Shown: positions 6,399 to 23,523 of the stretch, in pieces
How the letters are laid out: each line of letters opens with the position of its first letter
Numbering within the stretch: position 1 is the stretch's first letter
From: Gammaproteobacteria bacterium
GTDB lineage: Bacteria; Pseudomonadota; Gammaproteobacteria; UBA12402
Assembly (NCBI GenBank): GCA_050123335.1
Contig: JASFHH010000003.1
Span: 6,615-70,614, forward strand
Reading direction: 5' to 3'
Length of the DNA stretch: 64,000 bases
Program-made: the position numbers and the translations under genes
The notes under the pieces: model-generated
Seen by the model: the letters and a program-made list of their open reading frames with translations, nothing else
Databases searched by the model: none
Told to the model about the DNA's origin: nothing

Positions 6399-6416
6399 GG
6401 AAATTTAGCCAATTGG

Positions 6417-7072: not shown

Positions 7073-7121
7073 TTAATTATGATAGAGGAAATCAGGTGCT
7101 AAGTCTAGTTCGATCCTCGAT

Positions 7122-7247: not shown

Positions 7248-7294
7248 ATTGGTGAGTGTATAGACTTGATATCTTATTAGGTTATAATGAAAAC

Positions 7295-8197
7295 GTGGAC
7301 AAAATTATTACTTTTCAAGAATTAATTTTTAAATTGCAGCAATATTGGGCAAGTCTCGATTGTGTAATAGTTCAACCTTTAGATCTGCAAGTTGGAGCAG
7401 GAACTTTTCATCCCGCAACATTTTTGCGTGCGATTGGGCCGGAGCCTTGGAGATCTGCTTATGTGCAGCCTAGTCGACGTCCCACAGATGGTCGTTATGG
7501 TGAAAATCCTAATCGGGTGCAGCATTATTATCAGTTCCAGGTAGCATTAAAGCCTTCACCAAATAATATTCAAGATCTTTACTTAAATTCGCTGGAAATT
7601 TTAGGCATAGATTTTTTAGAGCACGATGTTCGTTTTGTTGAAGATAATTGGGAATCGCCGACTTTAGGAGCATGGGGTTTAGGCTGGGAAGTTTGGTTGG
7701 ATGGTATGGAAATCACCCAATTTACTTATTTCCAGCAGGCTGGCGGATTGGAGTGCAGACCGGTTACTGGTGAAATAACTTATGGTTTAGAACGAATTGC
7801 TATGTATTTGCAAAAAGTTGATAGGATGTTTGATTTAGTATGGACACAATCTTCATTGGGGACGGTGACTTATGGAGATGTGTTTTTACAAAATGAAAAA
7901 GAAATGTCTGCTTATAATTTTGAATATGCTGATATTGCAATATTATTTAAAGAATTTGAAACTTGTGAGCAACAATGTAATCAATTAATAGATGCTGCAT
8001 TACCATTGCCGGCGTATGAGATGGTATTAAAAGCGTCACACACATTTAATTTATTAGATGCACGGCACGCAATTTCCGTAACCGAAAGACAGCAATATAT
8101 TTTGCGTGTACGTAAATTAGCGCAAGCGGTGGCAAAATCATATTATGCGTCACGCGAACAATTGGGTTTCCCTATGCTTAAGGAAGGCGAAGTATAA
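7295..8197 (+). CDS. glyQ: glycine--tRNA ligase alpha subunit
   Basis: [36 protein letters not shown]. The likely GTG start at 7295 gives a GlyQ-like length; the listed ATG at 7256 adds 13 non-conserved residues. Confidence 0.92.
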
Positions 8198-10281: not shown

Positions 10282-10808
10282 AATTAATTATTCTTGATCG
10301 TGACGGCGTTATCAATGAAGATACCCCACATTATATTAAGTCCGCTGAGGAATGGCGTCCGATTCCTGGAAGTTTAGAAGCAATCGCCAAACTTAATCAT
10401 GCTGGGTACACTGTAATTATCGCAACTAATCAATCAGGAATTGGGCGTGGTTATTTTGACGTGGAAGCTTTAGATGAAATGCATGCTAAGATGCAGAGAG
10501 AGTTGGCTAAAATTGGAGGTAAGATAGATCATATTTATTTTTGTCCACACACTCCGGATGACAATTGTGATTGCCGCAAGCCAAAAACCGGAATGTTTGA
10601 ACAAATCATGCATGATTATGGTCTGCGCGATTTGAAGGGCGTGATTAATGTTGGAGATGCTTTGCGTGAAATACAAGTGGGGCAAATATTTGACTGTCGC
10701 AATATCTTGGTTTTAACCGGCAAAGGTCAAAAAACTTTGCAGGATAACCCGGATATCTCCGCCGAAATTTTCCAGGATTTGGCGGCATTGGTTAATTCAT
10801 TGGTGTGA
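10278..10808 (+). CDS. gmhB: D-glycero-beta-D-manno-heptose-1,7-bisphosphate 7-phosphatase
   Basis: DRDGVIN HAD motif plus the CPH...CDCRKP zinc-binding signature of GmhB; ATGA overlap with glyS. Confidence 0.85.
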   Translation: MKLIILDRDGVINEDTPHYIKSAEEWRPIPGSLEAIAKLNHAGYTVIIATNQSGIGRGYFDVEALDEMHAKMQRELAKIGGKIDHIYFCPHTPDDNCDCRKPKTGMFEQIMHDYGLRDLKGVINVGDALREIQVGQIFDCRNILVLTGKGQKTLQDNPDISAEIFQDLAALVNSLV

Positions 10809-10994
10809 TTTGTGAAATAAATATATTTTTATATTGGTTGATAACTTTATCCATTGTATCAAAAACTGGTCTAGGAGGCTAATGAATATTAGCCATAATA
10901 TTGTTTACTTAAGTGATTTTTTGGATTCATAACGTTCTCTTGCTTTTTTTATTGCTGAATGTAATCTTTCTTCGAAAATCTTTTTTGGCGGTAA

Positions 10995-11981
10995 TTAAGT
11001 CATAAATTGGCAAACGCGTATACCACTATCATTAAGTTGTAATAATTCAACACGTTCATCTGATTTTTCAGCACACAGTATGATTCCGATAGGTGGATTT
11101 TCGCCAGGTAACATTTCGTATTTTTCAAGCCAGCGCAAATATAATTCTATTTGCCCTTTATCAGCCGGTTTAAATGCTCCCATTTTAAGCTCGATCGCTG
11201 TCATACATTTTAATTGTCTATTGAACATTAATAAATCAATTTTAAAAAAGTCTCCATCAATCTCAATTACTTTTTGTCTTTCTTGGAAAGTAAATCCGGT
11301 GCCCATACTAAGTAGAAATTGTTGGATATCGCTAACAATAGCATCTTCAAACGATCGTTCATCTTCAAATTGTTGATTACTTAGATATTGCAAGATAACA
11401 GGATCCTGCATGATAAAATCTGGTTTTAAAATATCAGTTTTTCTTAGTTTGATAATTTCTTTTTTTATAATTGATTCAGGCTTTTTAGCAATTGCAGTAC
11501 GCTCAAATAGCATACTACTTAGTTTTTCTTTTAATCTGCTGATACTCCAGCGTTCAATACGACACATTTCTGCATAAAATTCTCTTTTCAGCTTATTTTC
11601 AATGTTGAGTAAAAAAACAAAATGCGACCATTTAAGATGATTTGACAAAGATATTACAATTTGTTCATCAGGAAATAATTTTGCGAATTGGATGCATCGA
11701 TAGATAACTCTGCGACCAAAACTGGAGCCAAATTTAATTTGAAGTTTATCAGCAAGAGTGTCGATGATGCCTGCGCCATATTTAGCACGCTCAGAGTCTA
11801 AAATATCATAATTAACACGTTGTCCGATATGCCAATAAAGTAGCACACCTGTTTGGCTTATTTTACGTAAAGTTTGTTGTTGAGTTGATTCTATGAGATT
11901 ACTGATGTCTTTAAATAGCTTATTTGCTGTGTTATTAACATCAGGGCAATCAATGCTAGAGTTGTTCATAATTTTACCCAA
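10995..11981 (-). CDS. yhcG: YhcG-like PDDEXK nuclease (DUF1016 family)
   Basis: MLFERTA, AIELKMGAFKPADKGQIELYLRWLEKYE and GIILCAEKSDERVELLQL all match DUF1016/YhcG signatures. Confidence 0.8.
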   Translation of the reverse strand: MGKIMNNSSIDCPDVNNTANKLFKDISNLIESTQQQTLRKISQTGVLLYWHIGQRVNYDILDSERAKYGAGIIDTLADKLQIKFGSSFGRRVIYRCIQFAKLFPDEQIVISLSNHLKWSHFVFLLNIENKLKREFYAEMCRIERWSISRLKEKLSSMLFERTAIAKKPESIIKKEIIKLRKTDILKPDFIMQDPVILQYLSNQQFEDERSFEDAIVSDIQQFLLSMGTGFTFQERQKVIEIDGDFFKIDLLMFNRQLKCMTAIELKMGAFKPADKGQIELYLRWLEKYEMLPGENPPIGIILCAEKSDERVELLQLNDSGIRVCQFMT

Positions 11982-12020
11982 AATATTATAAAAAAGCCAA
12001 AAAAAATCAAAGGGTTAAAA

Positions 12021-12081
12021 TTGTGTCTACGAGTAGACACAATTGAAAAATCTTAACCCGATAGTGTCTATATTAGACACT
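12021..12081. promoter_or_regulatory. two palindromic candidate operator sites (GTGTCTA-N-TAGACAC)
   Basis: TTGTGTCTAcgaGTAGACACAA at 12021-12042 and AGTGTCTAtatTAGACACT at 12063-12081. They lie upstream of yhcG on the minus strand and about 350 nt upstream of the pilus cluster. Confidence 0.3.
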
Positions 12082-12421
12082 GTTTTACCACCTTCCTATA
12101 AAAGTTGGTAAACAATATTACTGGATTTTTGCTCTCTCGGTAAGACTTTTTTGTGGTCAATTGGAGATTTGCCTTATAAATCATATGGGTTATGCTATTT
12201 TATCCGATATTTCTACTGTTCCTGCATGGAAAACCATTAAATTAACACAAAAAATTATCAAATTTTATTGTATTTCTTTGGCGATGTTTAATATTTGTTC
12301 TATATTAAATTTATCGATTGGGTTTGTAGGAGAAGAAGAGACTCATGCAGATTCAAGACCGATTGCCAATTTCATTTAATTTTGGTAGTCACATTTTGGA
12401 GTTACCAAGTGGGGGTTAAAA

Positions 12422-12874
12422 GTGAAAATAATATTATCAATAATATTTGGTATGTCTTGCGCTTTTATAATTAATGTAGGATATGCCGGTACAGTTCCAG
12501 TTAAGTATGTTCAAATTTCTCATTCTAAAATTAAGCCAGTTAAAAAAGATAAATCAGTTCACAAAACTATAGTTAAACCTAAACCTATAATTAAACCGAG
12601 ACCAGTTAAGATTAAGCGAGAGCCTTTTTTTATTATGACCAGTGGTTTTTTGTTACCTAATTTACGTATGTTTGCCAGGAAATTTAATTATCATCTGGTT
12701 TGGAAAGTAATTGATGTTAATACGGGTGAACAAATGGATTATCGATGGATTGGAACACACAAGGTTGTTGGCGCAACATCTTTGGATATTTTACAAAAGA
12801 TATTAAAGCCATATCCGGTTGTAGTTAATGTCTGGAAGACTAATAGAGTGGTTGAAGTTGCAAATGTTGGTTAA
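12422..12874 (+). CDS. small periplasmic protein at the head of the pilus cluster (possible secretin-associated or pilotin-like protein)
   Basis: GTG start after a GGGGGT ribosome-binding site, signal peptide, Lys/Pro-rich linker and conserved-looking C-terminal domain. It sits immediately upstream of the secretin. Confidence 0.4.
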   Translation: MKIILSIIFGMSCAFIINVGYAGTVPVKYVQISHSKIKPVKKDKSVHKTIVKPKPIIKPRPVKIKREPFFIMTSGFLLPNLRMFARKFNYHLVWKVIDVNTGEQMDYRWIGTHKVVGATSLDILQKILKPYPVVVNVWKTNRVVEVANVG

Positions 12875-12919
12875 CCACTGAAAGTTTATCATTACGAAAT
12901 ATTTATTGAGGGGGAAAGT

Positions 12920-14482
12920 ATGCGATCTAAATTTAAACGAATTTTATCTACGGGTATAGTTGCAGCATTTTGCGTAAGTTGTGTAAGTGGTTGTGCCAAC
13001 CAAATACAATTAGCCAAAGAAGCTGATGCAGCCAGTCAGCAGGCACAAGAGAGTATTAATGCTAATTTAGGTGAAATGCAAAATGTGCCAAAACCAGTAC
13101 ATCCTGGTGCAGTATTTAATGTCAAAAATAAAAGTTATGTTGATTTGAAACCAATCAGAATTCCTGCGAAGTGGAAAACTAAGCAGGTAGATATTTATGC
13201 TTCTGATCAGTCAGTTGCAGCAATTGTTGCAGAGATGACTAAAGGCATGGATGTAACTAATATTTTTGAGCCGGAGGTGCGTAATCAATCCATAAGTGTT
13301 GCATATCATGGTAATTTGTATGATGGCTTAAAGCAAATAGCAAGAGATAACAATATTGATTTAAATATTAGTGGTAATGTTAATCATCCAGTTTTTAATT
13401 GGTCGAAATATGAAACACGTACTTTTCAAATAGCATTTTTACCTGGTAATACTAGTTTTGGTATTGGTAATTATTCCAAAGATGGTGGTTCTTCTTCTTC
13501 AGATAGTTCTGATGATTCTGGGAAAACTGCTATATCCAATGGCAGCAACAGTGGTGCTTCTTTGTCTGGGTCGTCATTAAGTGTGTGGAAAGATTTGACC
13601 AGCTCAGTTAAAGGCATGTTATCTCCTCATGGTAAATTATCAGTTAGCCAGGCTTCAAGTTCGATTACGGTTATTGATACACCATATGTAGTTAATAAAA
13701 TTGCTAAGTATATTGATAATTACAATGGTATTTTATCAAAACGTGTTGCAATTAAAGTTAAAATTTTAGAAGTTCAATTAGATAATAATCACGCAAACGG
13801 TATTGATTGGAATGCGGTTTATTCAAGTTTTGGTGCAAAATTCAAGCTTAATGGAGCTTTTGGTAAAAGCGTTGCTAGTAATTTTGCTAAAGCTGTGTCT
13901 TCAGGTATAGGCATTGATGTTGGAAGAGGTCCCTGGAAAGATACCAGTGTCATGATTCAAGCCTTAGATCAGCAAGGTAAAACTACTGTAGTTAATGAGC
14001 CAACCGTAGTGAGTTTAAATAACCAGCCGAATACGATTAGCGTTGGTGAAAATCAAGCTTATGTTAAAAAAACAGATGTTACTTTGGATACGCAAACTCA
14101 TACAATGAGTACAGCATATACACCAGGTAATATAAAAACCGGTCTTGATTTAACTATCATTCCGCATATTCAGGATAATAAAATTTATTTATCTTTGAAT
14201 GCAATTTTATCTACTTTGCAAAGCATTAAAACATTTGGTGGTGATGGTACAGATCAAGATAAAAATTTATCACAAGTGCAATTACCGCAAACAGAAGATC
14301 GAGTGTTTAACCAGCGTATTATGTCACGTAGTGGGCATATGATTGTTTTGAGTGGATTTAAAGTTAAACAAAACTCATCTCAGGAAAATAAAAATTTTGG
14401 CACTAATTTGTTGGGAGGTGATTATGGATTATCTTCAAACGTAGAGCTAGTAGTTTTAATTCAGCCAACTTTAGTGAAATAG
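12920..14482 (+). CDS. lipoprotein secretin (type IVb pilus PilN/BfpB/TcpC-like)
   Basis: Lipobox SGC|ANQ after the signal peptide and a Ser-rich linker (GGSSSSDSSDDSG). The C-terminal secretin-domain pattern is VVNEPTVVSLNNQPNTISVGENQAY ... MSRSGHMIVLSGF. Confidence 0.65.
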   Translation: MRSKFKRILSTGIVAAFCVSCVSGCANQIQLAKEADAASQQAQESINANLGEMQNVPKPVHPGAVFNVKNKSYVDLKPIRIPAKWKTKQVDIYASDQSVAAIVAEMTKGMDVTNIFEPEVRNQSISVAYHGNLYDGLKQIARDNNIDLNISGNVNHPVFNWSKYETRTFQIAFLPGNTSFGIGNYSKDGGSSSSDSSDDSGKTAISNGSNSGASLSGSSLSVWKDLTSSVKGMLSPHGKLSVSQASSSITVIDTPYVVNKIAKYIDNYNGILSKRVAIKVKILEVQLDNNHANGIDWNAVYSSFGAKFKLNGAFGKSVASNFAKAVSSGIGIDVGRGPWKDTSVMIQALDQQGKTTVVNEPTVVSLNNQPNTISVGENQAYVKKTDVTLDTQTHTMSTAYTPGNIKTGLDLTIIPHIQDNKIYLSLNAILSTLQSIKTFGGDGTDQDKNLSQVQLPQTEDRVFNQRIMSRSGHMIVLSGFKVKQNSSQENKNFGTNLLGGDYGLSSNVELVVLIQPTLVK

Positions 14483-14495
14483 CGGGTAATATAAT

Positions 14496-15653
14496 ATGCA
14501 AGCATATTTATACGATATTTACAGTCAAAACGTCGCGGGAAAAAGCAGAAAAGAACTTTCTGATCTGCTATCCCGCGAAAGCGAACAATACAATTATGCT
14601 CTGTTAATTAAAGATCATTTAAGTTTGTCTAAACAAGATGGTATTTCCATTCCGGATGCTTTAATTGATAGTATTGCTGCTAAATCATTCATTTATGTGC
14701 AGCAATTAGCGGATCACCAATATTTCTTAATGGTATACGCTAATGACGCTATTATTTGGGCGGGAAAATTGGCAGAACATGAAATTGCTGGTATGTTGCA
14801 ATTGCATTTACAAACCAATCCAAAAATAAAATTGTTTACGTATAATTACAAAATTTCTGCAGATCTTGCGCACAGGAAAATTATAGAATTCAAACAGGAT
14901 CCTTTAGGTAAAATTAATCTGGAAGATTATCGTCTCAAACAAATTTTTGAAGTTAAACATAATTTAAATAAAAATATTAGATTTGCTTCAGCATTTTTGA
15001 TTATTTTAGTTATTGGGTTAATAATTGGTGGGTTATTTTTATCACATGCTGCAAGAGAACGGTCAGCTATTGCCGCTTGCGAAAAAGCTGCAGCAATGGA
15101 TGTATGGAAAAATTATCGACAAGAATTCAATCAACCACGCGCGTATGTATCAATTAAAGATATTGTTAGCAAATTACACCAAATATCTACAATACAAAAT
15201 TTTGCAGTTAGAGATTTTAAATGTGATGGCTCGAGTTTACAAGTGGATTTAGTTGCGTTTGGTGGTTCAGTAGTGGGTTTGGAAAAGTGGGCAGTGAAAA
15301 ATCAGTATAATTTACGTATTGTTAGTAATACTTACAAATTATCAAAATCGTTGGATATTCAGTCTCAAGAGTCACCGTTCACTATCATGGCAGCAGATGA
15401 TGTGTTAGCTCACGTGATTGATGCTGCTGGTATTTTAGGTAAAGACGTTGCAGTTGAAGTGGGAGATGTAGCGCAAAGTAATAATTATAAAGAGATTAAT
15501 TTGAGTGTGAATTTACAAAATCAGCCGGTCAATTTTATACAAAATTTGTTTAAGATTTTGCAAAAATATCCGGTGGAATTGGTGAGTATAGAAGGAGACT
15601 ATGCTTTAAATAATTTTAGTGGGGAAGTTAAGTTAAAAATTATTGGAGAGTAA
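14496..15653 (+). CDS. bitopic inner-membrane pilus assembly protein (PilO/BfpC-like)
   Basis: About 165 aa cytoplasmic domain, a single TM (FASAFLIILVIGLIIGGLFL) and about 200 aa periplasmic domain. Its position between the secretin and the ATPase matches the R64 pilN-pilO order. Confidence 0.4.
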   Translation: MQAYLYDIYSQNVAGKSRKELSDLLSRESEQYNYALLIKDHLSLSKQDGISIPDALIDSIAAKSFIYVQQLADHQYFLMVYANDAIIWAGKLAEHEIAGMLQLHLQTNPKIKLFTYNYKISADLAHRKIIEFKQDPLGKINLEDYRLKQIFEVKHNLNKNIRFASAFLIILVIGLIIGGLFLSHAARERSAIAACEKAAAMDVWKNYRQEFNQPRAYVSIKDIVSKLHQISTIQNFAVRDFKCDGSSLQVDLVAFGGSVVGLEKWAVKNQYNLRIVSNTYKLSKSLDIQSQESPFTIMAADDVLAHVIDAAGILGKDVAVEVGDVAQSNNYKEINLSVNLQNQPVNFIQNLFKILQKYPVELVSIEGDYALNNFSGEVKLKIIGE

Positions 15654-15655
15654 TC

Positions 15656-16384
15656 GTGAATAAATCTAATCGAAAACCAATGGTTAACAAAAAGTTAGCA
15701 ATTTTTAGTGTAATATTTTTAGTGATATGTGCTGGTGCATGGATCATGTTGGTGGGCAACCCTTTTGATAGTATATCTACTAGCAGTGTTTCATCGACAA
15801 AAGCACAAGTAGCTGTGTCAGCAAAACCTGCTCCTCGAGAGATAGATGTGCCAAAGTTAGAGGTAGATAATGCAGCTAAACCAGATTCTAATTTAATTAA
15901 GTTTAAATCATATTTGCAGCATGTAATTACCAATGATAAGAAACTTTCTAAACAGGATAAAAATGCTTATTTAGCTTATGTAGAGCAAATCAATAAATTT
16001 GTTGAACAAAAAACGCAAGCTGCAAAAGATATTCAACAATTGCAGCAATTAAGTGAGGAATATCGCATTAAGACATTACAAAGTCAGGTTTTAGAGCAGG
16101 AAAGCAAAATTTCTGCAGCCAAAGCTTCAATTCAAAGTGATCAATTCAAAGCTGCACAAGCATTAGGTTTGCCTGCGCAACAAATGGTGCAACAAGTTGA
16201 TCATGTTACCATGATTTATGGCAATGGTGGGAAATTGCAAGCTGATGTAGTAATTGATGGTGTTAAATATACCGGAAAAAGCATAGGGGATGCAATTAAT
16301 AATTATAAAATAGCAGGAATTCAATCTAATCAAGTTACATTATTAGATTCGAAGATACATAAAACAAAAATATTAGATTTGTAA
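15656..16384 (+). CDS. periplasmic coiled-coil pilus assembly protein (PilP-like)
   Basis: N-terminal TM anchor and Gln-rich coiled-coil; its position in the cluster is the main evidence. Confidence 0.35.
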   Translation: MNKSNRKPMVNKKLAIFSVIFLVICAGAWIMLVGNPFDSISTSSVSSTKAQVAVSAKPAPREIDVPKLEVDNAAKPDSNLIKFKSYLQHVITNDKKLSKQDKNAYLAYVEQINKFVEQKTQAAKDIQQLQQLSEEYRIKTLQSQVLEQESKISAAKASIQSDQFKAAQALGLPAQQMVQQVDHVTMIYGNGGKLQADVVIDGVKYTGKSIGDAINNYKIAGIQSNQVTLLDSKIHKTKILDL

Positions 16385-16398
16385 AAAAAATATTTGGT

Positions 16399-16518
16399 GG
16401 CGATTATCAGAGATTTTGGGTGGCTTTTTTCGACGACTAGCTCCCATGGATGGAAGAGCGGGAGGCACATGGATGTGCCAGGGAGGAGAAAAAAGACACA
16501 CAAAAACTCATAATCGCC
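16399..16518. repeat. palindromic element family B (copy B1, inverted orientation) inside the pilus operon
   Basis: Core TTTTTTCGACGACTAGCTCCCATGGATGGAAGAGCGGGAGGCACATGGATGTGCCAGGGAGGAGAAAAAAG flanked by the outer inverted repeat GGCGATTAT... Sits between the PilP-like gene and the ATPase gene. Confidence 0.6.
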
Positions 16519-16555
16519 AGAAATAAAAAGTTTGTAAATTATAAGGTAAAAATTT

Positions 16556-18217
16556 ATGGCAACAAACAGTTACGAACAATTACAAAAATATGCCGAGTTG
16601 CTGAATGCTAAGGTACTGTTGGATGCTTCAGAAATTAATGCTCAGGTAGATAAAAATATTAGTTTACATTGGGCAGCTAATAAAGAAGATATTGTAGTAT
16701 TGGTTAATGGCGATATTTTGATTTCTGATCCAGCGTCACCTAGTCTTTATGAATGCAAAACTTATTTTAAAACTCATGGCTTAACTCAAGGCGAGGTATA
16801 CTTTACTACTTTAGCGGTAGTTAAAGAATTGCGTGAGCGCGCCGCAGATGTGAGTGCAGTTGTTGCAAACGAAGACAAAACTATTGGTGAAAAACAATTG
16901 ATGGATTTAATTCGTTTGGCAATCGAACAAAATGCTTCAGATATTCACATGTTTATTGGTAGAACCAGATGTAAAATTCATTTTCGTGTAGATGGTTTGT
17001 TGATGCCGATTACTGATTGGCCGGCTGATCAAGGCATTAGAATACATAATGTAGCGTATAACTTTGTAGCGCAAGATAAGTCAGATAACTTTAATCGTAC
17101 TAAGCCGCAGGATACTTCTTTTACTTTGCATCTACAAGGTAAAGGTGATGTGCGAATTCGTTCGTCAAATATTCCAACTAATAATGGCGGTTGTAATATT
17201 GTTTATCGTATCCTTTCGATTGGTCAAAAAGATGTGGTACCAATTGAAAATCTTGGTTATACCAAAGCGCAAGAAAAACTATTAGAAGAAATTAAACATT
17301 TATCCAGCGGATTGGTGCTGTTTTGTGGTGAAACCGGTAGTGGTAAAACCACATCATTAGCTAGTGTGCTGGCTGGAATTGATCCCAGAAGAAAAGTTTA
17401 CAGCATTGAGGATCCAGTAGAAAAATTAGTGCCGAATGTTATTCAAATTCCGGTAGATACAAAAGACAAGTCAAAAAGTTTTGCTTATTATTTACGGGCA
17501 TTATTGCGTCAAGATCCGAATGTTATCATGGTGGGAGAAATTCGTGATTTGGAAACCGCAAAAGTAGCGATGCAAAGTGCATTGACTGGCCACTTGATTT
17601 TATCAACTTTGCATACGCGTTACGCGGTGGATTCGGTTTTGCGTTTAAATGAATTTGGTATGTCACCAAAAATTTTAGCCACACCAAATTTATTAAAATT
17701 GATTGTAGCACAGGAATTGCATCCAAAATTATGTCCATTATGTCGCAGACCTTTGATGTCTGAAGAAAAACAACAGTTATTAGGTTTGTATAAGAAGAGT
17801 GAGATGGAAGAGATGTTTACCGTGCCATTAAAAAAAGAAATTAATCCGGATTGTCCAGTTTGTGGCGGTAAAGGTATTGCCGGACGTAAAGTATATGCAG
17901 AGATGGTTAAAGTTGATCAGCGAGCACATGATTTTATTGCGGATGTAGACATTAAAGGATGGCGTGCGCATTTGCAAGAATGTGGTTTTGTAACTTTAAA
18001 TGAAAGGGTGCGAAATGCGATTAAGCGTGGTGAAATTGATGCTTTAGGAGTTACGCGTGATCCGGTTGAAGTAGCTGCTTATTCTTATCGCGAACAATTA
18101 CAAGTTGATCCAAGTTTTAGTTCGGTAGACCGAAAGGTTAAGTTTTTTAATGCACAAAATAATTCGCAAGAAAAAATAAATAGCCGATTAAATTCGGCCA
18201 GTATATTACGTAGGTAA
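16556..18217 (+). CDS. GspE/PilB-family secretion ATPase
   Basis: Walker A GETGSGKTT, Walker B VIMVGEIRD, and the tetracysteine CPLCRRP ... CPVCGG that is typical of assembly ATPases and absent from PilT. Confidence 0.9.
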   Translation: MATNSYEQLQKYAELLNAKVLLDASEINAQVDKNISLHWAANKEDIVVLVNGDILISDPASPSLYECKTYFKTHGLTQGEVYFTTLAVVKELRERAADVSAVVANEDKTIGEKQLMDLIRLAIEQNASDIHMFIGRTRCKIHFRVDGLLMPITDWPADQGIRIHNVAYNFVAQDKSDNFNRTKPQDTSFTLHLQGKGDVRIRSSNIPTNNGGCNIVYRILSIGQKDVVPIENLGYTKAQEKLLEEIKHLSSGLVLFCGETGSGKTTSLASVLAGIDPRRKVYSIEDPVEKLVPNVIQIPVDTKDKSKSFAYYLRALLRQDPNVIMVGEIRDLETAKVAMQSALTGHLILSTLHTRYAVDSVLRLNEFGMSPKILATPNLLKLIVAQELHPKLCPLCRRPLMSEEKQQLLGLYKKSEMEEMFTVPLKKEINPDCPVCGGKGIAGRKVYAEMVKVDQRAHDFIADVDIKGWRAHLQECGFVTLNERVRNAIKRGEIDALGVTRDPVEVAAYSYREQLQVDPSFSSVDRKVKFFNAQNNSQEKINSRLNSASILRR

Positions 18218-18221
18218 ATAA

Positions 18222-19265
18222 ATGAGTTTGTTTGAACGTATACAATTATTTTTATTTAAGAAGCAGTTTAACAATACTAAACGGCAGGAATTGTTAATTC
18301 AATTATCTTTTTTGTTGAAAGCAAACGTTCCGCCGTCAGATGCTTTGTACCACATGCAGCAGATTTACTTTGATAACAAAAATCTTTTGATGCATGCGGT
18401 AGTAACAGATATGTTAGATAATATTAGAGCTGGTAAAAAAATCGGTGACAATATGACGGATTGGTTTCCGTATGAAGTATGTCGCGTGTTATCGATTTCA
18501 GAAGAAAGAGGTTTTTTGCTGCAAGGTGTAGAGAATCTAATTAAATACTTTGATACAGGTCGTAACGCTTTAAAAGCACTTACCGGAATTATACCAGGCT
18601 TGGCTTATTTTATTGTGATTTTAGTGTTTATTGCGTTTACTGGTGCGAAGTTATTGCCAAGTTTAGGAACGATGGTAAAAGATTGGCCGGCAATTTCAAT
18701 GGCATTAAATAAATCTGGTATGTTTTTGTATCACAATTATTACTTCATATTGGCAATTGTGGTTTTGTTAATTGTTTGGGTGATTATCGCACTGCGAGAT
18801 TATTCTGGAAAAATTTATCAACTAATTGCTAAACCATTAGTGCCTACTTATAAATTGCAAGCATCGCTTTTATTATTTAAATCATTATCAATGTTAACAG
18901 GTAATGGTGTTGCGGTATCAGATGCCATTAAAATGTTGTTGCTAAATCGTACGCATGGTTTTGTTTATCGGCATCTTTCGGAGATGTTTTATCGGGTTAG
19001 ACGTGGTGAAAATATAGGAAATATGCTTGATACGGGTATTTTTACGCGTAGTCAGATAGCGCACCTTAAAGTAATTAGCCGTTATTGTTCGGAGGCTGAG
19101 TACTCAAAGGTATTTGCGCTTATGGGAGAGCAAACTAGCCACGATCTTAGCAGGCGGATGAAAATATTTTCAAAAATTATGAATTTTATTTTCATTGCTT
19201 TAACTGCCGTTGGGGTAGTTTGGGTCTACGGTGCATATGCACTGTTAGTATCTTCAATAACTTAG
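18222..19265 (+). CDS. GspF/PilC-family inner-membrane platform protein
   Basis: 347 aa polytopic membrane protein immediately after the ATPase. Its size fits BfpE/PilR-type platforms. Confidence 0.7.
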   Translation: MSLFERIQLFLFKKQFNNTKRQELLIQLSFLLKANVPPSDALYHMQQIYFDNKNLLMHAVVTDMLDNIRAGKKIGDNMTDWFPYEVCRVLSISEERGFLLQGVENLIKYFDTGRNALKALTGIIPGLAYFIVILVFIAFTGAKLLPSLGTMVKDWPAISMALNKSGMFLYHNYYFILAIVVLLIVWVIIALRDYSGKIYQLIAKPLVPTYKLQASLLLFKSLSMLTGNGVAVSDAIKMLLLNRTHGFVYRHLSEMFYRVRRGENIGNMLDTGIFTRSQIAHLKVISRYCSEAEYSKVFALMGEQTSHDLSRRMKIFSKIMNFIFIALTAVGVVWVYGAYALLVSSIT

Positions 19266-19280
19266 AAAGGGGAGGAGTCA

Positions 19281-19751
19281 ATGTTAAATAACTTTCTAAA
19301 AAAACGTAAGTCTGAACAAGGCTTTACTTTAGTTGAGTTCTTGGTTGTGTTAGGACTTATTTTTGTGTTGGTTGCAGTTATTGCAATGGCTGCATATAAA
19401 TCAACTCAGCGTACTCGTATTTCAAAGGTTAAAAGTGAAGTTATGAGTATCGTTGCTGCTGCACAGAATTGGGCTTCTAATAAACCAACCATGTTTAAAA
19501 ACATGACGTTTAAGGATTTAGAGAACTCAGATCTTGTAAGTAAAGATTTGGTTAATAGTAATTACCAGGATCCGTGGGGTGGAGTTTATGAACTAACACC
19601 AGCAGGAAATGGTGGTTCTTTTACAGTTACTATTAATGGAGTGCCTAATAAGTCAATAGCACAAGACTTAGCTGATAACTTGCGTCCAGCGAGTTTAAAT
19701 CAGGATAGTTCTGTAGCTGCTGATGACAACGTAAAGGTAACTTTCAGATAA
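19281..19751 (+). CDS. prepilin-type major (pseudo)pilin
   Basis: Leader MLNNFLKKRKSEQG, then mature FTLVEFLVVLGLIFVLVAVIAMAAY with Glu5. GGGGAGGAG ribosome-binding site. First pilin after the platform gene. Confidence 0.75.
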   Translation: MLNNFLKKRKSEQGFTLVEFLVVLGLIFVLVAVIAMAAYKSTQRTRISKVKSEVMSIVAAAQNWASNKPTMFKNMTFKDLENSDLVSKDLVNSNYQDPWGGVYELTPAGNGGSFTVTINGVPNKSIAQDLADNLRPASLNQDSSVAADDNVKVTFR

Positions 19752-19757
19752 TGTATA

Positions 19758-19824
19758 GGGGCCGGGTCTTTACTTATTACAAGTGCCCTGTCAGTTGCTT
19801 TGTAATAAGTAAAGACCCGGCCCC
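19758..19824. repeat. palindromic element family A (copy A1) acting as a hairpin terminator after the major pilin gene
   Basis: GGGGCCGGGTCTTTACTTATTACAAGTGC-loop-GCTTTGTAATAAGTAAAGACCCGGCCCC. Starts 7 nt after the pilin stop and ends 4 nt before the next ATG. Confidence 0.65.
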
Positions 19825-19827
19825 ATA

Positions 19828-20313
19828 ATGGAGCTAAACGTGAATAAAATGAAAAAGCACAAAGGTTTTACTTTAGTTGAATTGTTATTAGTGATGGCGA
19901 TTTGTGCGTCGTTGACCGCAGTGGTTTATACTGCTTGGCATAATATTCAAGTAAGGTTAGATCTGCAAAAAGTTCAATCGCAGGTAAATATAATAGTTGA
20001 TGTTGCCAGAGCTTGGCGTAATGCAAAAACTTCATATCAAGGGATTTCTATGAGTCCTGATGATAAAGATTCTCTTTGTAATGATAATCTATTGCCAAAA
20101 GATATGTGTGTTGCGGGTTTTGTAAATCCATGGGGTGGTCAGTATCGTGTTAGTGTGTCTGCAAAATATGGTGATAATAATTTTGATGTTACTTTAACTG
20201 ACATTACTAACTCAGAAATACGAAATGCGATCAAATTAATTTTATTAAAAAGCACTTTAGGACAAGACAGTATTCAAATAGAGAGAGACAAAATAATTGC
20301 GACGTTTAATTAA
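19828..20313 (+). CDS. prepilin-type minor pilin
   Basis: The leader ends in G, followed by FTLVELLLVMAICASL with Glu5. The alternative start at 19849 gives a short MKKHKG leader. Confidence 0.7.
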   Translation: MELNVNKMKKHKGFTLVELLLVMAICASLTAVVYTAWHNIQVRLDLQKVQSQVNIIVDVARAWRNAKTSYQGISMSPDDKDSLCNDNLLPKDMCVAGFVNPWGGQYRVSVSAKYGDNNFDVTLTDITNSEIRNAIKLILLKSTLGQDSIQIERDKIIATFN

Positions 20314-20818
20314 ACACAAAATAAAATATGAAGCAGCATTTACGATGATTGAAATGTTAATATCGCTGGCTGCTATTGGGATTTTATTTGCTATATTAAT
20401 AGTGGCTGCGCACCAAGCTTTTAACGTGCCGGCAGAACGGTCGAGTTTGATGAGTTGTAAAAATAATTTAATACAGGCGTTAAATGCTTATTATTTGAAT
20501 AATTATCATCAGTTGCACCATACAACTCAGCCGGTAGCAATTGATAATTTGGTTGCGCAACATTATTTGGATAAAGATAGTTTGTATAATATTGGACAGT
20601 TTAAATATACGGCTGGTGTGCGAGTAGTGGATACTCACGATCGGTTAGAGTTAGCTATTACAACTGATGATGCTAACAGTTTGGTATGGATGAAGCCGGA
20701 TAAAATAGATGGCAATAGGGCAATTTGGTATGTAGTACCGCAGTATGGTGATACGGCTAATTCGATAAGATATAACGCGGTGCAATTGGCTCGGGAGAAT
20801 GATAATGACAAAATGTAA
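20297..20818 (+). CDS. prepilin-type minor pilin
   Basis: ...KYEAA|FTMIEMLISLAAIGILFAIL has Ala rather than Gly at -1 and keeps Glu5. Overlaps the previous gene. Confidence 0.6.
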   Translation: MRRLIKHKIKYEAAFTMIEMLISLAAIGILFAILIVAAHQAFNVPAERSSLMSCKNNLIQALNAYYLNNYHQLHHTTQPVAIDNLVAQHYLDKDSLYNIGQFKYTAGVRVVDTHDRLELAITTDDANSLVWMKPDKIDGNRAIWYVVPQYGDTANSIRYNAVQLARENDNDKM

Positions 20819-21572
20819 TGTAAACAAACAACGTGGCTTTATTATGATCCAAGTGTTGTTGGGTTTAGCGGTGTTAATTGCGATCATGACGGGTTGGGCT
20901 TATTACCAGAATCGTGTGCATAAACGAGCGGTTGCTAATCGCATGACTAACGAAATTAATTATATTTTAGAAGCAGCAACTTCATATTACAGTGATCATA
21001 ATAAGTGGCCTGAGAGAATGGCCGATTTAATTAACGCGGGATATATAGATCGGCAAACTAAAGGCAGTGATGAAATTTTAGATCCGTATGGACAAAAATA
21101 TGTGTTAGACAATTCGCAGGGGGGCAAATTATATCTGCTTGCTTATATTCCAGAAGATGATGCGTATGTAGCGCGTAACGCCATGACAGCGTTGCCATTT
21201 GCTAAATTTGATCCAGATGGAGCATCTGCTCCGCAAGGATATGATGTATTACAAGCGGCGGTAATGCCTTATGGGCATGGTGGAATTGTAAAAAATGCTA
21301 CGATAGTTCCTTCAGGCACAATTATTGACAAGCCGATTTGTCCCAAGGATGAAAAAGCAAAAATTTATACTAGTGTAGCTTCGGGCGTTGAAAAAGATGG
21401 GTCTTTTGTGGGAGGTTATCGTACTTATGCTGATAATTTAGAGGATGAACATAAATGGAAAGTGCATATGCAAGTATTAACCAATGGAGGTTGGGTGGAT
21501 GCTGATAAAGATTCAGATGCTTATAAAATAGAGGTGTTTACAACATGTCAAAAAACAAATTCAGATTTTTGA
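20799..21572 (+). CDS. prepilin-type minor pilin lacking Glu5 (GspK/PilV-like large minor pilin)
   Basis: ...NKQRG|FIMIQVLLGLAVLIAIM has Gln at +5. At 257 aa it is the largest pilin in the cluster. Confidence 0.6.
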   Translation: MIMTKCNVNKQRGFIMIQVLLGLAVLIAIMTGWAYYQNRVHKRAVANRMTNEINYILEAATSYYSDHNKWPERMADLINAGYIDRQTKGSDEILDPYGQKYVLDNSQGGKLYLLAYIPEDDAYVARNAMTALPFAKFDPDGASAPQGYDVLQAAVMPYGHGGIVKNATIVPSGTIIDKPICPKDEKAKIYTSVASGVEKDGSFVGGYRTYADNLEDEHKWKVHMQVLTNGGWVDADKDSDAYKIEVFTTCQKTNSDF

Positions 21573-21958
21573 TGGCTAAAATTATTGTAATGTTATATTT
21601 GATTGCCAATATATTTGGTATTACTAATGTTTTTGCTGATGATGCTACTTCATATGGTAATATTTCAGTAAATACTCATATCAGGAGGGAGTTGGTAGCA
21701 ATTTATAAGCATGTTGATTTAAGCACGACGCGTTCTATTCCTATGCCAAATTGTAGTTCTGGCGGAGTCCCAGAAATTCTTCCTATAGTGTCAGATAATA
21801 TTATAAATTATTATCAAGGTCCTTTTAAAGCTCAAGATGAAAGTTATGATCTTGCTGTTCAGAGTGTAGGTAAAGTTTGGCTCGTATCGACTAAAATGCA
21901 AAATGGTATTCATTGGTATGCAAATTATGCGGTGTATTGTCGTTATACTCCTAAATAA
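21545..21958 (+). CDS. small secreted protein, last gene of the pilus cluster
   Basis: Signal peptide FLMAKIIVMLYLIANIFGITNVFA; overlaps the preceding pilin gene. Confidence 0.35.
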   Translation: MSKNKFRFLMAKIIVMLYLIANIFGITNVFADDATSYGNISVNTHIRRELVAIYKHVDLSTTRSIPMPNCSSGGVPEILPIVSDNIINYYQGPFKAQDESYDLAVQSVGKVWLVSTKMQNGIHWYANYAVYCRYTPK

Positions 21959-21969
21959 TGTTGCGTGAT

Positions 21970-22626
21970 TTAACCTAATCCGAATATTGTAAGAATTAAT
22001 CTTTGTAGTAGTACAATCGGTACCCATAAAAGTAAACGTAAAATGCCGGTGACTAATAACAATAACAAAATAAAAAATCCATATGGTGCAATTCGATCAT
22101 ATTTATAAGCTAATTTTGGCGGCAAAATGGCTGCAACTACGCGGCTGCCGTCAAGCGGCGGAATAGGGATTAAATTTAAGATCATTAATACTAAATTGAT
22201 CAGGATTCCTGCTCGACCCATTAATACGATTGGTAAGGCAAATTGTAGGCCGTGTCCCATTAGAATGCTACCTATTTTCGTAATTGCCGCCCAGATGAGT
22301 GCCATAATGATATTTGAAATTGGTCCAGCAAGAGCTACAAATGCCATATCTCTTCTGGGTTTCTTTAGATTATTTGGGTTCACCGGGACTGGTTTAGCCC
22401 AACCGAAGATGATAGGACTGAAAAGCAGTAAAATCAGTGGAATGAGAATCGTGCCAATCATATCAATATGCTTGAGCGGATTTAAAGTTAATCGACCAAG
22501 CATTAGTGCAGTTTTGTCACCTAGTTTTAATGCCATCCAGCCATGCGCTACTTCATGTACAGTAATAGCGAATAAAATAGGTGGAGCCCATACAATAATT
22601 TTTTGAATAATATTTAATTGCCACAT
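21970..22626 (-). CDS. site-2 protease family zinc metalloprotease (peptidase M50)
   Basis: HEVAHGWMA HExxH motif in a TM segment plus the LNLIPIPPLDGSR LDG motif; polytopic. Confidence 0.75.
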   Translation of the reverse strand: MWQLNIIQKIIVWAPPILFAITVHEVAHGWMALKLGDKTALMLGRLTLNPLKHIDMIGTILIPLILLLFSPIIFGWAKPVPVNPNNLKKPRRDMAFVALAGPISNIIMALIWAAITKIGSILMGHGLQFALPIVLMGRAGILINLVLMILNLIPIPPLDGSRVVAAILPPKLAYKYDRIAPYGFFILLLLLVTGILRLLLWVPIVLLQRLILTIFGLG

Positions 22627-22676
22627 AATGATCGCATTATATATTATATGAGCGGGAGATAAAAGTGCAACTTGGA

Positions 22677-22737
22677 GGGGCCGGGTCTTTACTTATTACA
22701 AGTGCGATAGCTTTGTAATTAGTAAAGACCCGGTCCC
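22677..22737. repeat. palindromic element family A (copy A2)
   Basis: GGGGCCGGGTCTTTACTTATTACAAGTGC...GTAATTAGTAAAGACCCGGTCCC, followed by the associated ATGTAAAGCTCACGACCCG segment. Confidence 0.65.
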
Positions 22738-23220: not shown

Positions 23221-23416
23221 CTCTTGTTTGCAGCAACACCGCCGCCCAGATACCAGGAATTATGTGCTTGTTGCTGTGATTTTTTTGGTAAGTATAAAGG
23301 GCCGCTTTGTCCACAGCCATTTAGTACTAACAAGAATGCAAAAATACTTCCGATAAATATTATTTGTTTTATGCTCTTTTTCATGCTGTAATTATCAAAT
23401 TAATTTTATGTGGCTT

Positions 23417-23523
23417 ATAAGGTTTTGGGTTGATTTTTTCTCCTCCCTGGTACGTCCATGTACCTCCCGCGTTTCCATCCATGGACGCTAGTCGTCGAAA
23501 AATTCAACCCAAAACCTTATAAT
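23417..23523. repeat. palindromic element family B (copy B2)
   Basis: Outer inverted repeat TTATAAGGTTTTGGGTTGA / TCAACCCAAAACCTTATAA around the core TTTTTTCTCCTCCCTGGTACGTCCATGTACCTCCCGCGTTTCCATCCATGGACGCTAGTCGTCGAAAAA. Confidence 0.65.

What the first reader, a model, noticed from the sequence alone, without database searches (positions are those of the whole stretch)
12422..21958. Compact chromosomal type IVb-pilus / T2SS-like cluster with R64/PAPI-1 pilN-O-P-Q-R-S gene order
Ten co-directional genes, several overlapping. They encode a small periplasmic protein, a lipoprotein secretin (lipobox SGC, Ser-rich linker, secretin C-domain) and a bitopic inner-membrane protein with large cytoplasmic and periplasmic domains. 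These are followed by a periplasmic coiled-coil protein, a GspE-type ATPase with the CxxC...CxxC zinc site, a GspF-type platform and four prepilin-type pilins. The fourth pilin lacks Glu5, like GspK, and a small secreted protein ends the cluster. Lipoprotein secretins and this gene order are hallmarks of type IVb pili (Bfp/Tcp/R64 thin pilus/PAPI-1 pil2), which normally travel with conjugative elements. Here the cluster sits between gmhB/yhcG and an M50 protease with no conjugation genes. It could be a minimal pilus or secretion machine in a Legionellales-like intracellular bacterium, possibly for adhesion or for exporting the neighbouring small secreted protein.
Basis: partly seen in the sequence, partly recalled or inferred. 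Interest (0 to 1): 0.85.

Follow-up and report, generated by a model that had tools for sequence, protein, structure and literature searches.

The report
Chromosomal type IVb pilus gene cluster
This is an intact 11-gene cluster for a type IVb pilus (a surface fibre used for attachment and sometimes protein export) in the core chromosome of an uncultured Legionella/Coxiella-like bacterium; it is an unstudied, diverged version of a known machine, and relatives occur in about 40 related species, including culturable Aquicella.

Summary
Window 12422-21958 carries eleven co-directional intact ORFs under purifying selection. They encode a TcpQ/BfpG-like secretin partner, a PilN/BfpB-type lipoprotein secretin and a bitopic protein whose predicted fold matches PilO2 and GspL/M. 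After these come a PilP-like protein, a GspE/PilB-type ATPase with CxxC...CxxC, a PilC-type platform, four prepilins and a small secreted protein. The order matches R64 pilL-N-O-P-Q-R-S...V and also bfpG-B-C-U-D-E...I-J-K-L.

No conjugation genes, integrase, tRNA, prepilin peptidase or retraction ATPase lie in the 64 kb. Homologous clusters are chromosomal in about 45 Legionellales/Coxiellaceae genomes. In 29 of 33 rearranged "type B" loci, including cultured Aquicella siphonis, the cluster sits directly after gyrB.

Two corrections. The Glu5-less fourth pilin is not GspK-like. Its confident model is a T4b pilin domain plus a TcpB/CofB-like beta domain, and Gln5 is a recent change. Compact chromosomal R64-type clusters without a peptidase or conjugation genes are already known (Burkholderia Tfp7).

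Most likely it builds a pilus for attachment, possibly also exporting the adjacent secreted protein as TCP and CFA/III do. Verdict: a new variant of a known kind, moderate interest.

The parts
12422..12874 (+). ORF1, 150 aa. Periplasmic TcpQ/BfpG-like secretin partner; corresponds to the C-terminal domain of R64 PilL.
   Evidence: No Pfam hit for the single sequence. The family profile hits PDB 9u5s_R, the 114-aa 'Lipoprotein' chain that accompanies the BfpB secretin chain and that I take to be BfpG (E 1.5e-7). It also hits the R64 PilL C-terminus (hhalign prob 85%, E 6e-6), and BfpG, Hydrogenophaga TcpQ and Pandoraea TcpQ. Homologues in related loci carry Pfam TcpQ. dN/dS 0.13.
12920..14482 (+). 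ORF2, 520 aa. Outer-membrane lipoprotein secretin of the PilN/BfpB (type IVb) class.
   Evidence: Pfam Secretin and Secretin_N_2. Best NCBIfam hit is PilN T4b at 229.6 bits (below the 287.65 cut-off), against MshL 125, GspD 62 and PilQ 37. The only PDB match is BfpB 9u5s_A, E 6.4e-31 over residues 94-519. The lipobox Cys25 is invariant. It falls in the T4b secretin clade with 100% NJ bootstrap against MshL.
14496..15653 (+). ORF3, 385 aa. Bitopic inner-membrane assembly protein: cytoplasmic actin-like domain, one TM helix, two tandem ferredoxin-like periplasmic domains. PilO2/BfpC/GspL analogue.
15656..16384 (+). ORF4, 242 aa. Bitopic protein: N-terminal TM helix, coiled-coil-like middle region, C-terminal PilP-like beta domain. 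Probable link between the inner-membrane platform and the secretin.
   Evidence: NCBIfam PilP TIGR03021 at 24.1 bits, below the 34.65 cut-off. hhalign to the R64 PilP C-terminus prob 36%, E 3.7e-4. The family HMM hits the PilP-position protein of the Hydrogenophaga plasmid at 24 bits. It occupies the same position as pilP/bfpU.
16411..16523 (.). 113-nt repeat element that fills most of the ORF4/ATPase spacer.
   Evidence: 81% inverted copy of 23405-23517, which carries its own 26-nt terminal inverted repeats. The spacer is only 13 nt in relative L001.
16556..18217 (+). ORF5, 553 aa. Assembly ATPase (PilQ/BfpD/GspE class) with a tetracysteine zinc motif.
   Evidence: Pfam T2SSE 3.5e-80. Walker A, Walker B, His box and CPLC...CPVC read directly from the sequence. 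Closest references: Hydrogenophaga PilQ 154, Pandoraea PilQ 152, R64 PilQ 117, BfpD 95 bits. Closest solved structure: EpsE, 1.4e-50.
18222..19265 (+). ORF6, 347 aa. Polytopic inner-membrane platform (PilR/BfpE/GspF class).
   Evidence: Pfam T2SSF, two stretches, 1.7e-12. BfpE 53 bits, PilR 28 bits. dN/dS 0.07.
19281..19751 (+). ORF7, 156 aa. Candidate major pilin (pilS position). Prepilin site G|FTLVE, no cysteines, DPWGGVY motif.
   Evidence: N_methyl hit; PilS domain 20.8 bits; weak GspG-like match over the globular part. Most conserved gene of the cluster: 99% identity, dN/dS 0.024 against L012. Followed by a strong hairpin.
19758..19824 (+). Perfect 25-bp-stem palindrome directly after ORF7. 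Possible attenuator or mRNA stabiliser that would set the major-to-minor pilin ratio. Member of a REP-like repeat family.
   Evidence: three copies in the window, none expected by chance. RNA fold -48.5 kcal/mol, z -7.9. A related palindrome occupies the same spacer in L012. The regulatory role is inferred, not shown.
19828..20313 (+). ORF8, 161 aa. Pilin with site G|FTLVE and a NPWGGQY motif; PilS-type domain.
   Evidence: N_methyl 3.5e-8; PilS 23.0 bits against cut-off 22. BfpA 25 bits. dN/dS 0.25.
20297..20818 (+). ORF9, 173 aa. Minor pilin with Ala instead of Gly at -1 (A|FTMIE).
   Evidence: N_methyl and TIGR02532 hits. Ala at -1 is conserved in L012 and L001.
20799..21572 (+). ORF10, 257 aa. 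Two-domain minor pilin: T4b pilin domain plus a C-terminal beta domain of TcpB/CofB (H-type-lectin-like) type. Site G|FIMIQ (Gln5). Candidate tip or initiator pilin.
21545..21958 (+). ORF11, 137 aa. Small Sec-exported protein with one conserved Cys pair. Lineage-specific. Candidate exported partner of the tip pilin.
   Evidence: No Pfam or NCBIfam family. The only sequence-detectable homologue is in L012. The positional counterpart in L001 shares DATS at the predicted mature N-terminus and the Cys pair. dN/dS 0.59. The function is inferred only by analogy with TcpF/CofJ.

Best explanation
The cluster encodes a complete, functional type IVb-class pilus machine that has become part of the core chromosome.

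Shown or directly read:
- ORF2 is a lipoprotein secretin of the PilN/BfpB class, and ORF1 is its TcpQ/BfpG-type partner.
- ORF5 is a zinc-motif assembly ATPase and ORF6 a PilC-type platform.
- ORF3 has the PilO2/BfpC/GspL topology and predicted fold.
- ORF7-10 carry prepilin sites.

Inferred:
- ORF3 recruits the ATPase through its actin-like cytoplasmic domain.
- ORF4 (PilP-like) bridges the platform to the secretin.
- A prepilin peptidase encoded elsewhere (PilD/LspO type) cleaves the prepilins.
- ORF10, a small TcpB/CofB-type two-domain pilin, together with ORF8 and ORF9, primes assembly and sits at the tip.
- ORF7 polymerises as the shaft. Its gene is followed by a hairpin that may keep shaft pilin in excess.
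- The filament leaves through the secretin and mediates attachment or aggregation on a host (probably protist) or another surface.
- By analogy with TCP/TcpF and CFA-III/CofJ, the fast-evolving secreted ORF11 may be carried out by, or bind to, the ORF10 tip.
- There is no retraction ATPase in the window, so any retraction would be of the ATPase-independent TCP kind. Gln5 in ORF10 may reduce even that.
For: - Family and structure matches for each part.
- Gene order identical to R64 pilL-N-O-P-Q-R-S...V and to bfpG-B-C-U-D-E...I-J-K-L.
- T4b secretin clade at 100% bootstrap.
- Purifying selection on all genes.
- Conserved synteny in the 92% and 69% relatives.
- Homologous chromosomal clusters in about 45 Legionellales/Coxiellaceae genomes, with gyrB adjacent in 29 of 33 type-B loci, including cultured Aquicella siphonis.
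- Uniform GC, no tRNA, no tra, integrase, peptidase or PilT-like sequence in the window.
- Precedents: peptidase-less chromosomal R64-variant Tfp7 (PMC3984277). TcpB and CofB initiate assembly and bind the exoproteins TcpF and CofJ, and TCP lacks a retraction ATPase (PMC5207764, PMC6048534, PMC10120004).
Against: - No filament or expression data exist.
- ORF3 has no sequence-level link to PF06864, and the PilP assignment is sub-threshold.
- The secretin scores below the PilN equivalog cut-off.
- ORF7 and ORF8 lack classical T4b pilin features (non-Phe +1, long leader, large disulfide-bonded D-region) and carry a GspG-like DPWG motif. A short periplasmic endopilus therefore cannot be excluded.
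- No prepilin peptidase lies in the 64 kb, and the rest of the genome was not available.
- ORF11's role rests on analogy alone.
- The taxonomy of the window organism is inferred from its relatives.
Confidence: 0.72

Rival explanations
1. The machine is mainly a T2SS-like exporter. A short endopilus of the GspG-like ORF7 pushes one or a few periplasmic substrates, such as ORF11, through the secretin, and no long surface pilus is made.
For: - ORF7 and ORF8 have Phe+1, short leaders, no D-region disulfide and a DPWGG-Y motif. ORF7 has a weak GspG match over its globular part (TIGR01710 28 bits; PulG 5wda E 0.022).
- The ATPase is closest to EpsE among solved structures.
- ORF3 is GspL/M-like in fold.
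- T4b pili do export proteins.
Against: - The secretin, its TcpQ partner and the ORF10 fold are T4b-specific. GspD scores 62 bits against a cut-off of 351.
- There is no GspM, no GspC with a PDZ domain, and no GspH-K set.
- ORF10 is built like CofA/TcpB, not GspK.
- Pfam scores ORF7 and ORF8 as PilS-type, and no T2SS protein G hit appears.
- TCP and CFA/III both export a protein and make long pili, so the two functions do not exclude each other.
Confidence: 0.18
2. It is the thin-pilus module of a conjugative plasmid or ICE, as in R64 or PAPI-1, either still mobile or a recently stranded fragment.
For: R64 gene order. The closest named plasmid homologues are PilN proteins on conjugative plasmids.
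Against: - No tra/trb genes, relaxase, T4CP, integrase, tRNA or flanking direct repeats in 64 kb.
- GC equals that of the flanks.
- The neighbours are housekeeping genes in every related locus examined.
- Type-B clusters are fixed next to gyrB in 29 of 33 loci.
- No shufflon PilV, and identities to plasmid PilN and PilQ are only about 30%.
Confidence: 0.03
3. It is a decaying, non-functional remnant.
For: It lacks a peptidase, a lytic transglycosylase and a retraction ATPase. Repeat elements are inserted in two spacers. ORF9 has Ala at -1 and ORF10 has Gln5.
Against: All 11 ORFs are intact, with dN/dS of 0.02-0.25 for ten of them. The catalytic motifs are intact. The cluster is conserved across about 45 genomes.
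Confidence: 0.03
4. It is a DNA-uptake (competence) pilus.
For: Type IV filaments can take up DNA. The cluster is small and has several minor pilins.
Against: No ComEA, ComEC or DprA next to it, and no PilT. The secretin and tip pilin are T4b adhesion/secretion types. Known competence pili are T4a or Com (Denise 2019).
Confidence: 0.04

Closest known systems
R64/IncI thin pilus (pilL-V) and its chromosomal derivatives: Burkholderia pseudomallei Tfp7, PAPI-1 pil2, and the Pandoraea cluster
   Same: - Order TcpQ-domain protein, PilN, PilO, PilP, PilQ, PilR, PilS, then a larger C-terminal-domain pilin.
- The secretin and ATPase score highest against this group.
- The ORF3 cytoplasmic domain is closest in fold to PilO2 of B. 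pseudomallei.
- Like Tfp7 and PAPI-1, it has no peptidase of its own; like Tfp7 it is chromosomal, compact and carries TcpQ.
   Different: - No PilM, no PilT lytic transglycosylase, no PilU, no shufflon PilV.
- ORF3 is not recognised by PF06864, and its model has two periplasmic ferredoxin-like domains.
- The pilins have Phe+1 and lack the D-region disulfide.
- There are two extra minor pilins and a secreted protein.
- All equivalog models score below their cut-offs.
- It forms separate secretin clades (type A 85%, type B 83% bootstrap).
Bundle-forming pilus of EPEC (bfpA-G-B-C-U-D-E-F-P-H-I-J-K-L)
   Same: - Core order G-B-C-U-D-E, followed by several small pilins and a small last gene.
- BfpB is the only solved structure that matches the secretin, and the partner chain of that entry (taken to be BfpG) matches the ORF1 family.
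- The platform and ORF7/8 score best against BfpE and BfpA.
   Different: - No BfpF retraction ATPase, BfpP peptidase or BfpH.
- The major pilin gene is not at the front of the cluster.
- Chromosomal rather than plasmid-borne.
- The secretin and ATPase are closer to the R64 type than to Bfp.
TCP of Vibrio cholerae and CFA/III of ETEC (minor pilin TcpB/CofB plus exoprotein TcpF/CofJ)
   Same: - ORF10 is a two-domain minor pilin whose model matches CofA and TcpA (pilin domain) and the TcpB C-terminal half and CofB.
- No retraction ATPase in the window.
- A small secreted protein is encoded in the operon.
   Different: - ORF10 is about half the size of TcpB or CofB and has Gln5.
- There are three further pilins rather than a single minor pilin.
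- ORF11 has no detectable similarity to TcpF or CofJ.
- The gene order differs.
Type II secretion system
   Same: - Zinc-motif GspE-like ATPase, GspF-like platform and a GspL/M-like fold for ORF3.
- GspG-like motif and Phe+1 in ORF7 and ORF8.
- One pilin without Glu5.
   Different: - The secretin is a T4b lipoprotein type (GspD 62 bits against 351).
- A TcpQ partner stands in place of a pilotin.
- No GspC, GspM or GspH-K.
- The Glu5-less pilin has a T4b/CofB-like fold, not a GspK fold.

Membership tests
Type IVb pilus (T4bP), R64 thin-pilus variant | PilN/BfpB-class lipoprotein secretin | tested here: met
   Lipobox Cys invariant. PilN TIGR02520 is by far the best model, at 229.6 bits, although below the equivalog cut-off of 287.65. 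BfpB is the only PDB match, E 6.4e-31. T4b clade at 100% bootstrap.
Type IVb pilus (T4bP), R64 thin-pilus variant | TcpQ/BfpG/PilL-domain secretin partner encoded next to the secretin | tested here: met
   The family profile hits the partner chain 9u5s_R, taken to be BfpG (E 1.5e-7), the PilL C-terminus (prob 85%) and TcpQ proteins. The single window sequence has no Pfam hit.
Type IVb pilus (T4bP), R64 thin-pilus variant | PilO2/BfpC protein: sequence membership of Pfam PF06864 | tested here: not met
   0 of 55 family members match PF06864 at E <= 0.1. hhalign against R64 PilO2, Hydrogenophaga PilO2 and BfpC is not significant.
Type IVb pilus (T4bP), R64 thin-pilus variant | PilO2/BfpC protein: bitopic topology with an actin-like cytoplasmic domain, encoded after the secretin gene | tested here: met
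Type IVb pilus (T4bP), R64 thin-pilus variant | PilP | tested here: inconclusive
   TIGR03021 at 24.1 bits against cut-off 34.65. hhalign prob 36%. 24 bits to the Hydrogenophaga PilP-position protein. The position and topology fit.
Type IVb pilus (T4bP), R64 thin-pilus variant | Assembly ATPase and PilC-type platform | tested here: met
   T2SSE 3.5e-80 and T2SSF 1.7e-12. Closest references are T4b PilQ and BfpE. These domains are shared by all type IV filament systems.
Type IVb pilus (T4bP), R64 thin-pilus variant | Classical T4b major pilin: about 190-200 aa, long leader, non-Phe residue +1, large disulfide-bonded D-region | tested here: not met
   ORF7 and ORF8 are 156 and 161 aa, with 13-14-aa leaders and Phe+1. 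ORF7 has no Cys. The reference pilins BfpA, PilS and the Pandoraea and Hydrogenophaga pilins all have the Cys pair. The PilS Pfam domain is borderline (23.0 and 20.8 against 22). ORF10 does have a T4b pilin fold and a C181-C250 pair.
Type IVb pilus (T4bP), R64 thin-pilus variant | Dedicated prepilin peptidase in the locus (PilU/BfpP/TcpJ) | tested here: not met
   No A24-like sequence in the 64 kb (tblastn; ORF reading). It is also absent from PAPI-1 and Tfp7, and it is treated as a 'loner' gene in the TXSScan T4bP model. The rest of the genome could not be tested.
Type IVb pilus (T4bP), R64 thin-pilus variant | Linkage to a conjugative element; shufflon PilV adhesin | tested here: not met
   No tra, relaxase, integrase or Rci genes. 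Housekeeping flanks in all relatives.
TCP/CFA-III-type T4b pilus | Two-domain initiator minor pilin with a TcpB/CofB-type C-terminal domain | tested here: met
TCP/CFA-III-type T4b pilus | Operon-encoded exoprotein exported through binding to the minor pilin | not testable with these tools
   ORF11 is a Sec-exported, fast-evolving candidate. It has no similarity to TcpF or CofJ, and no binding or secretion data exist.
Type II secretion system | GspD secretin; GspC, GspL and GspM; pseudopilins GspG-K | tested here: not met
   GspD 62 bits against 351. GspE 243 against 630. GspF 36 against 424. GspG 28 against 89. No GspC or GspM. The Glu5-less pilin has a T4b/CofB-like fold.
MSH pilus | MshL secretin and the msh gene set | tested here: not met
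   MshL 125 bits against a cut-off of 250. MshL sequences fall outside the T4b clade that holds the window secretin.

The most novel reading that the evidence does not exclude
The window cluster and its gyrB-linked relatives may be an ancient, vertically inherited type IVb pilus of the Aquicella/Coxiellaceae branch of Legionellales. It could descend from the thin-pilus half of the same IncI-like transfer region whose Tra/Trb half became the Dot/Icm secretion system. It would now serve host-cell attachment, or export of a dedicated protein through a CofB/TcpB-like tip. My evidence does not exclude this. The gene order is that of R64. ORF1 matches the PilL C-domain. The secretins sit inside the T4b clade, but their position relative to IncI PilN is unresolved (type A plus type B 54% bootstrap; R64-like group 31%).
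Probability: 0.12. Interest if true: 0.75.

Novelty: new variant of a known kind. Interest (0 to 1): 0.42.

Why it matters
Legionellales are studied mainly for Dot/Icm, the Lsp type II system and type IVa pili. My full-text searches found no paper linking a type IVb pilus to this order.

Here a T4b-class machine turns out to be a conserved core-genome feature of many uncultured Coxiellaceae-like lineages and of culturable Aquicella. That makes it experimentally accessible.

Its parts are a mosaic: an R64-like secretin and ATPase, a Bfp-like platform, a small TcpB/CofB-like tip pilin, and GspG-like small pilins. This is useful for understanding how T4b pili and type II secretion relate, and for finding a possible new attachment or export route in amoeba-associated bacteria.

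It does not overturn anything. Compact chromosomal R64-type clusters were already known.

Tried and rejected
- Promoter and terminator consensus scans over 11900-22700 were at chance level (50 found against 48 expected; 7 against 5.9). No operon structure can be claimed from them.
- Rfam found nothing in the window.
- ORF10 and ORF11 as paralogues: BLASTP shows no similarity.
- ORF3 as a sequence member of PilO2/BfpC was tested with Pfam on 55 members, a PDB profile search and three hhalign runs. All were negative or non-significant. Only the predicted fold links them.
- ORF4 family against the PDB by sequence gave only spurious coiled-coil hits.
- ORF1 family against R64 PilM gave no match.
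- The GspK reading of ORF10 is rejected on fold and on Glu5 in the homologues.
- The NJ tree could not resolve whether the Legionellales secretins are sister to IncI PilN.
- I could not place the window organism itself by marker genes.

Full report
OBSERVATION. Three junctions overlap (ORF8/9, 9/10, 10/11). Most of the others are 2-15 nt apart, and ORF1/2 are 45 nt apart. The two larger spacers, 171 nt before the ATPase and 76 nt after ORF7, each contain a repeat element.
- the lipobox VSGC|A, whose Cys is invariant in 21 homologues;
- a Ser-rich linker that aligns with that of BfpB;
- Walker A, Walker B and His boxes, with CPLC...CPVC, in the ATPase;
- prepilin sites G|FTLVE in ORF7 and ORF8, A|FTMIE in ORF9 and G|FIMIQ in ORF10;
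- a Sec signal peptide on ORF11.

HMMs confirm Secretin plus Secretin_N_2, T2SSE (3.5e-80), T2SSF, N_methyl and a borderline PilS domain. The neighbours are gmhB (230 bits against cut-off 178), a YhcG-type PDDEXK protein and an M50 peptidase. Against a 92%-identical relative (L012), ten genes have dN/dS of 0.02-0.25 and ORF11 has 0.59. These are real genes under selection.

WHAT EACH PART IS.
- Secretin (ORF2). By a wide margin its best model is the PilN type IVb family: 229.6 bits, against MshL 125, GspD 62 and PilQ 37. It stays below the equivalog cut-off of 287.65. The only solved structure it matches is BfpB (E 6.4e-31, residues 94-519).
- ORF1. Alone it has no family. A profile of its homologues matches the 114-aa 'Lipoprotein' chain of the same cryo-EM entry, which I take to be BfpG (9u5s_R, E 1.5e-7; paper PMC12531336). 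It also matches the C-terminal domain of R64 PilL (prob 85%) and TcpQ proteins, but not PilM.
- ORF4. It is weakly PilP-like (24 bits against 34.65; hhalign prob 36%; 24 bits to a plasmid PilP-position protein).
- ATPase and secretin. Both score highest against R64-type references (Hydrogenophaga, then Pandoraea, then R64, then Bfp).
- Platform and ORF7/8. These score highest against BfpE and BfpA.
- ORF11. It has no family and only one sequence-detectable homologue.

CONTEXT.
- GC content is uniform and there is no tRNA.
- There is no tra gene, integrase, prepilin peptidase, PilT, lytic transglycosylase or PilV-like sequence in the 64 kb.
- The window comes from a MAG labelled Gammaproteobacteria.
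- A scan of one genome per species found 43 loci with a clearly related secretin, in genomes labelled Coxiellaceae, Legionellales or Gammaproteobacteria (all MAGs except BBSC-SA01/SA02, which are not labelled MAG), plus eight weaker hits in other phyla.
- Two arrangements exist. Type A has the R64 order and is found in the window, L012 (92% identity, same flanks), L001 (69%, same downstream genes), L002/L003 and L004/L005 (other housekeeping flanks). Type B has the order ATPase, platform, two large pilins, TcpQ, secretin, ORF3-like, ORF4-like.
- In 29 of 33 type-B loci, gyrB of the dnaA-dnaN-recF-gyrB block lies directly upstream. This includes the complete chromosome of cultured Aquicella siphonis.
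- A profile of the ORF3 family retrieves 532 proteins, including those of A. lusitana and A. siphonis.
- No assembly gave two hits in the scan. This suggests one system per genome, with the caveat that the search pattern was narrow.
- A rough NJ tree puts types A and B, the R64-like secretins and BfpB in one clade, with 100% bootstrap against MshL. Type A has 85% and type B 83% support. Deeper branching is unresolved.

MECHANISM (inferred unless marked). The secretin and its TcpQ partner form the outer-membrane channel; this is shown by homology to BfpB and its partner chain. ORF3, ORF4, the platform and the ATPase form the inner-membrane motor. ORF3 probably docks the ATPase, as GspL and BfpC do, and ORF4 probably contacts the secretin, as PilP and GspC do. 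A peptidase encoded elsewhere must cleave the prepilins. PAPI-1 and Burkholderia Tfp7 also lack their own peptidase (PMC3984277), and a review states that T4P occur in all Legionellales and that the T2S O peptidase is needed for both type II secretion and T4P in L. pneumophila (PMC6617341). ORF7 is the probable shaft pilin. It sits in the pilS position, is 99% conserved with dN/dS of 0.024, and is followed by a -48.5 kcal/mol hairpin (z -7.9). A related hairpin occupies the same spacer in L012. ORF10 probably primes assembly and sits at the tip, as TcpB and CofB do (PMC5207764, PMC6048534). ORF11 is a candidate exported partner, by analogy with TcpF and CofJ, which bind the minor pilin through their mature N-termini (PMC10120004). 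ORF11 and its L012 and L001 counterparts keep DATS at the predicted mature N-terminus while the rest of the protein diverges. TcpB E5V is piliated but non-retractile and impaired in secretion. Gln5 in ORF10 occurs only in the window and its closest relatives and might have a similar effect. That is speculation.

COMPARISON AND NOVELTY. The machine is a member of the T4b class and is closest to the R64 variant. It fails several strict tests:
- it is below the cut-off on every equivalog model;
- ORF3 lies outside PF06864;
- the small pilins have Phe+1, short leaders, a GspG-like DPWG motif and no D-region disulfide pair;
- it has no PilM, PilT, PilU or shufflon PilV.

It is not a T2SS or an MSH pilus. 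TXSScan treats the peptidase as a loner gene. What appears to be new is the lineage (my full-text searches found no paper linking T4b pili to Legionellales or Aquicella), the core-genome fixation next to gyrB, and the mosaic of R64-, Bfp- and Tcp/Cof-like parts. I rate it a new variant of a known kind, with interest 0.42.

LIMITS.
- The structures are predictions.
- The tree is a simple NJ tree.
- The organism's taxonomy is inferred from its relatives and from an F-box/RCC1 protein in the window.
- Only 64 kb of the genome was available.

Noticed in passing
window 43118-44737 (-): A 539-aa protein with an N-terminal F-box and seven RCC1 repeats (Pfam RCC1 6.8e-69, F-box-like 1.1e-7). This eukaryote-like architecture is typical of effectors of intracellular bacteria.
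   Followed up: partly
window 19758-19824, 22677-22737, 32477-32537: A REP-like family of perfect palindromes (25-nt arms GGGGCCGGGTCTTTACTTATTACAA, 11-17-nt loops), always intergenic. One copy lies directly after the candidate major pilin gene. A related but different palindrome occupies the same spacer in the 92% relative L012.
   Followed up: partly
window 16411-16523 and 23405-23517: A 113-nt element in the ORF4/ATPase spacer is an 81% inverted copy of an element downstream of the cluster. That downstream copy has its own 26-nt terminal inverted repeats, which looks MITE-like. The spacer is only 13 nt in relative L001.
   Followed up: no
window 10995-11981 (-): The YhcG/DUF1016 PDDEXK nuclease-like gene between gmhB and the cluster is absent from the 92%-identical relative L012, where gmhB ends 252 nt before ORF1. 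It is a strain-specific insertion.
   Followed up: partly
L063 (Aquicella siphonis LR699119.1) 3396-11961, and 28 other loci: The rearranged 'type B' version of the system (ATPase, platform, two large pilins of about 265 and 315 aa, TcpQ, secretin, ORF3-like, ORF4-like) sits directly after dnaA-dnaN-recF-gyrB in 29 of 33 loci. It is therefore next to the replication origin region in a culturable species.
   Followed up: partly
window 20297-20818: The ORF9 prepilin has Ala rather than Gly at position -1 of the cleavage site. This is conserved in L012 and L001. Cleavage may be inefficient or need a tolerant peptidase.
   Followed up: no
window 57760-58206 (+): A 148-aa secreted, Cys/His-rich protein with an MVL mannan-binding repeat (Pfam 1.1e-8).
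   Followed up: no
window 1252-2217 and 2362-2931 (+): Two proteins (321 and 189 aa) just upstream of groEL with no Pfam family at E <= 0.01. The first ends in an acidic tail. They could be lineage-specific effectors.
   Followed up: no
window 54174-55553 (+): A 459-aa protein with only sub-threshold AdoHcyase and NAD-binding matches (about 22 bits, below the cut-offs), lying next to a hybrid sensor kinase at 55622-57682.
   Followed up: no
L002 5803-7737 (-): In a 37%-identical type-A relative, a 644-aa protein with a weak eukaryotic-type protein kinase (Pkinase) hit lies just upstream of the pilus cluster.
   Followed up: no
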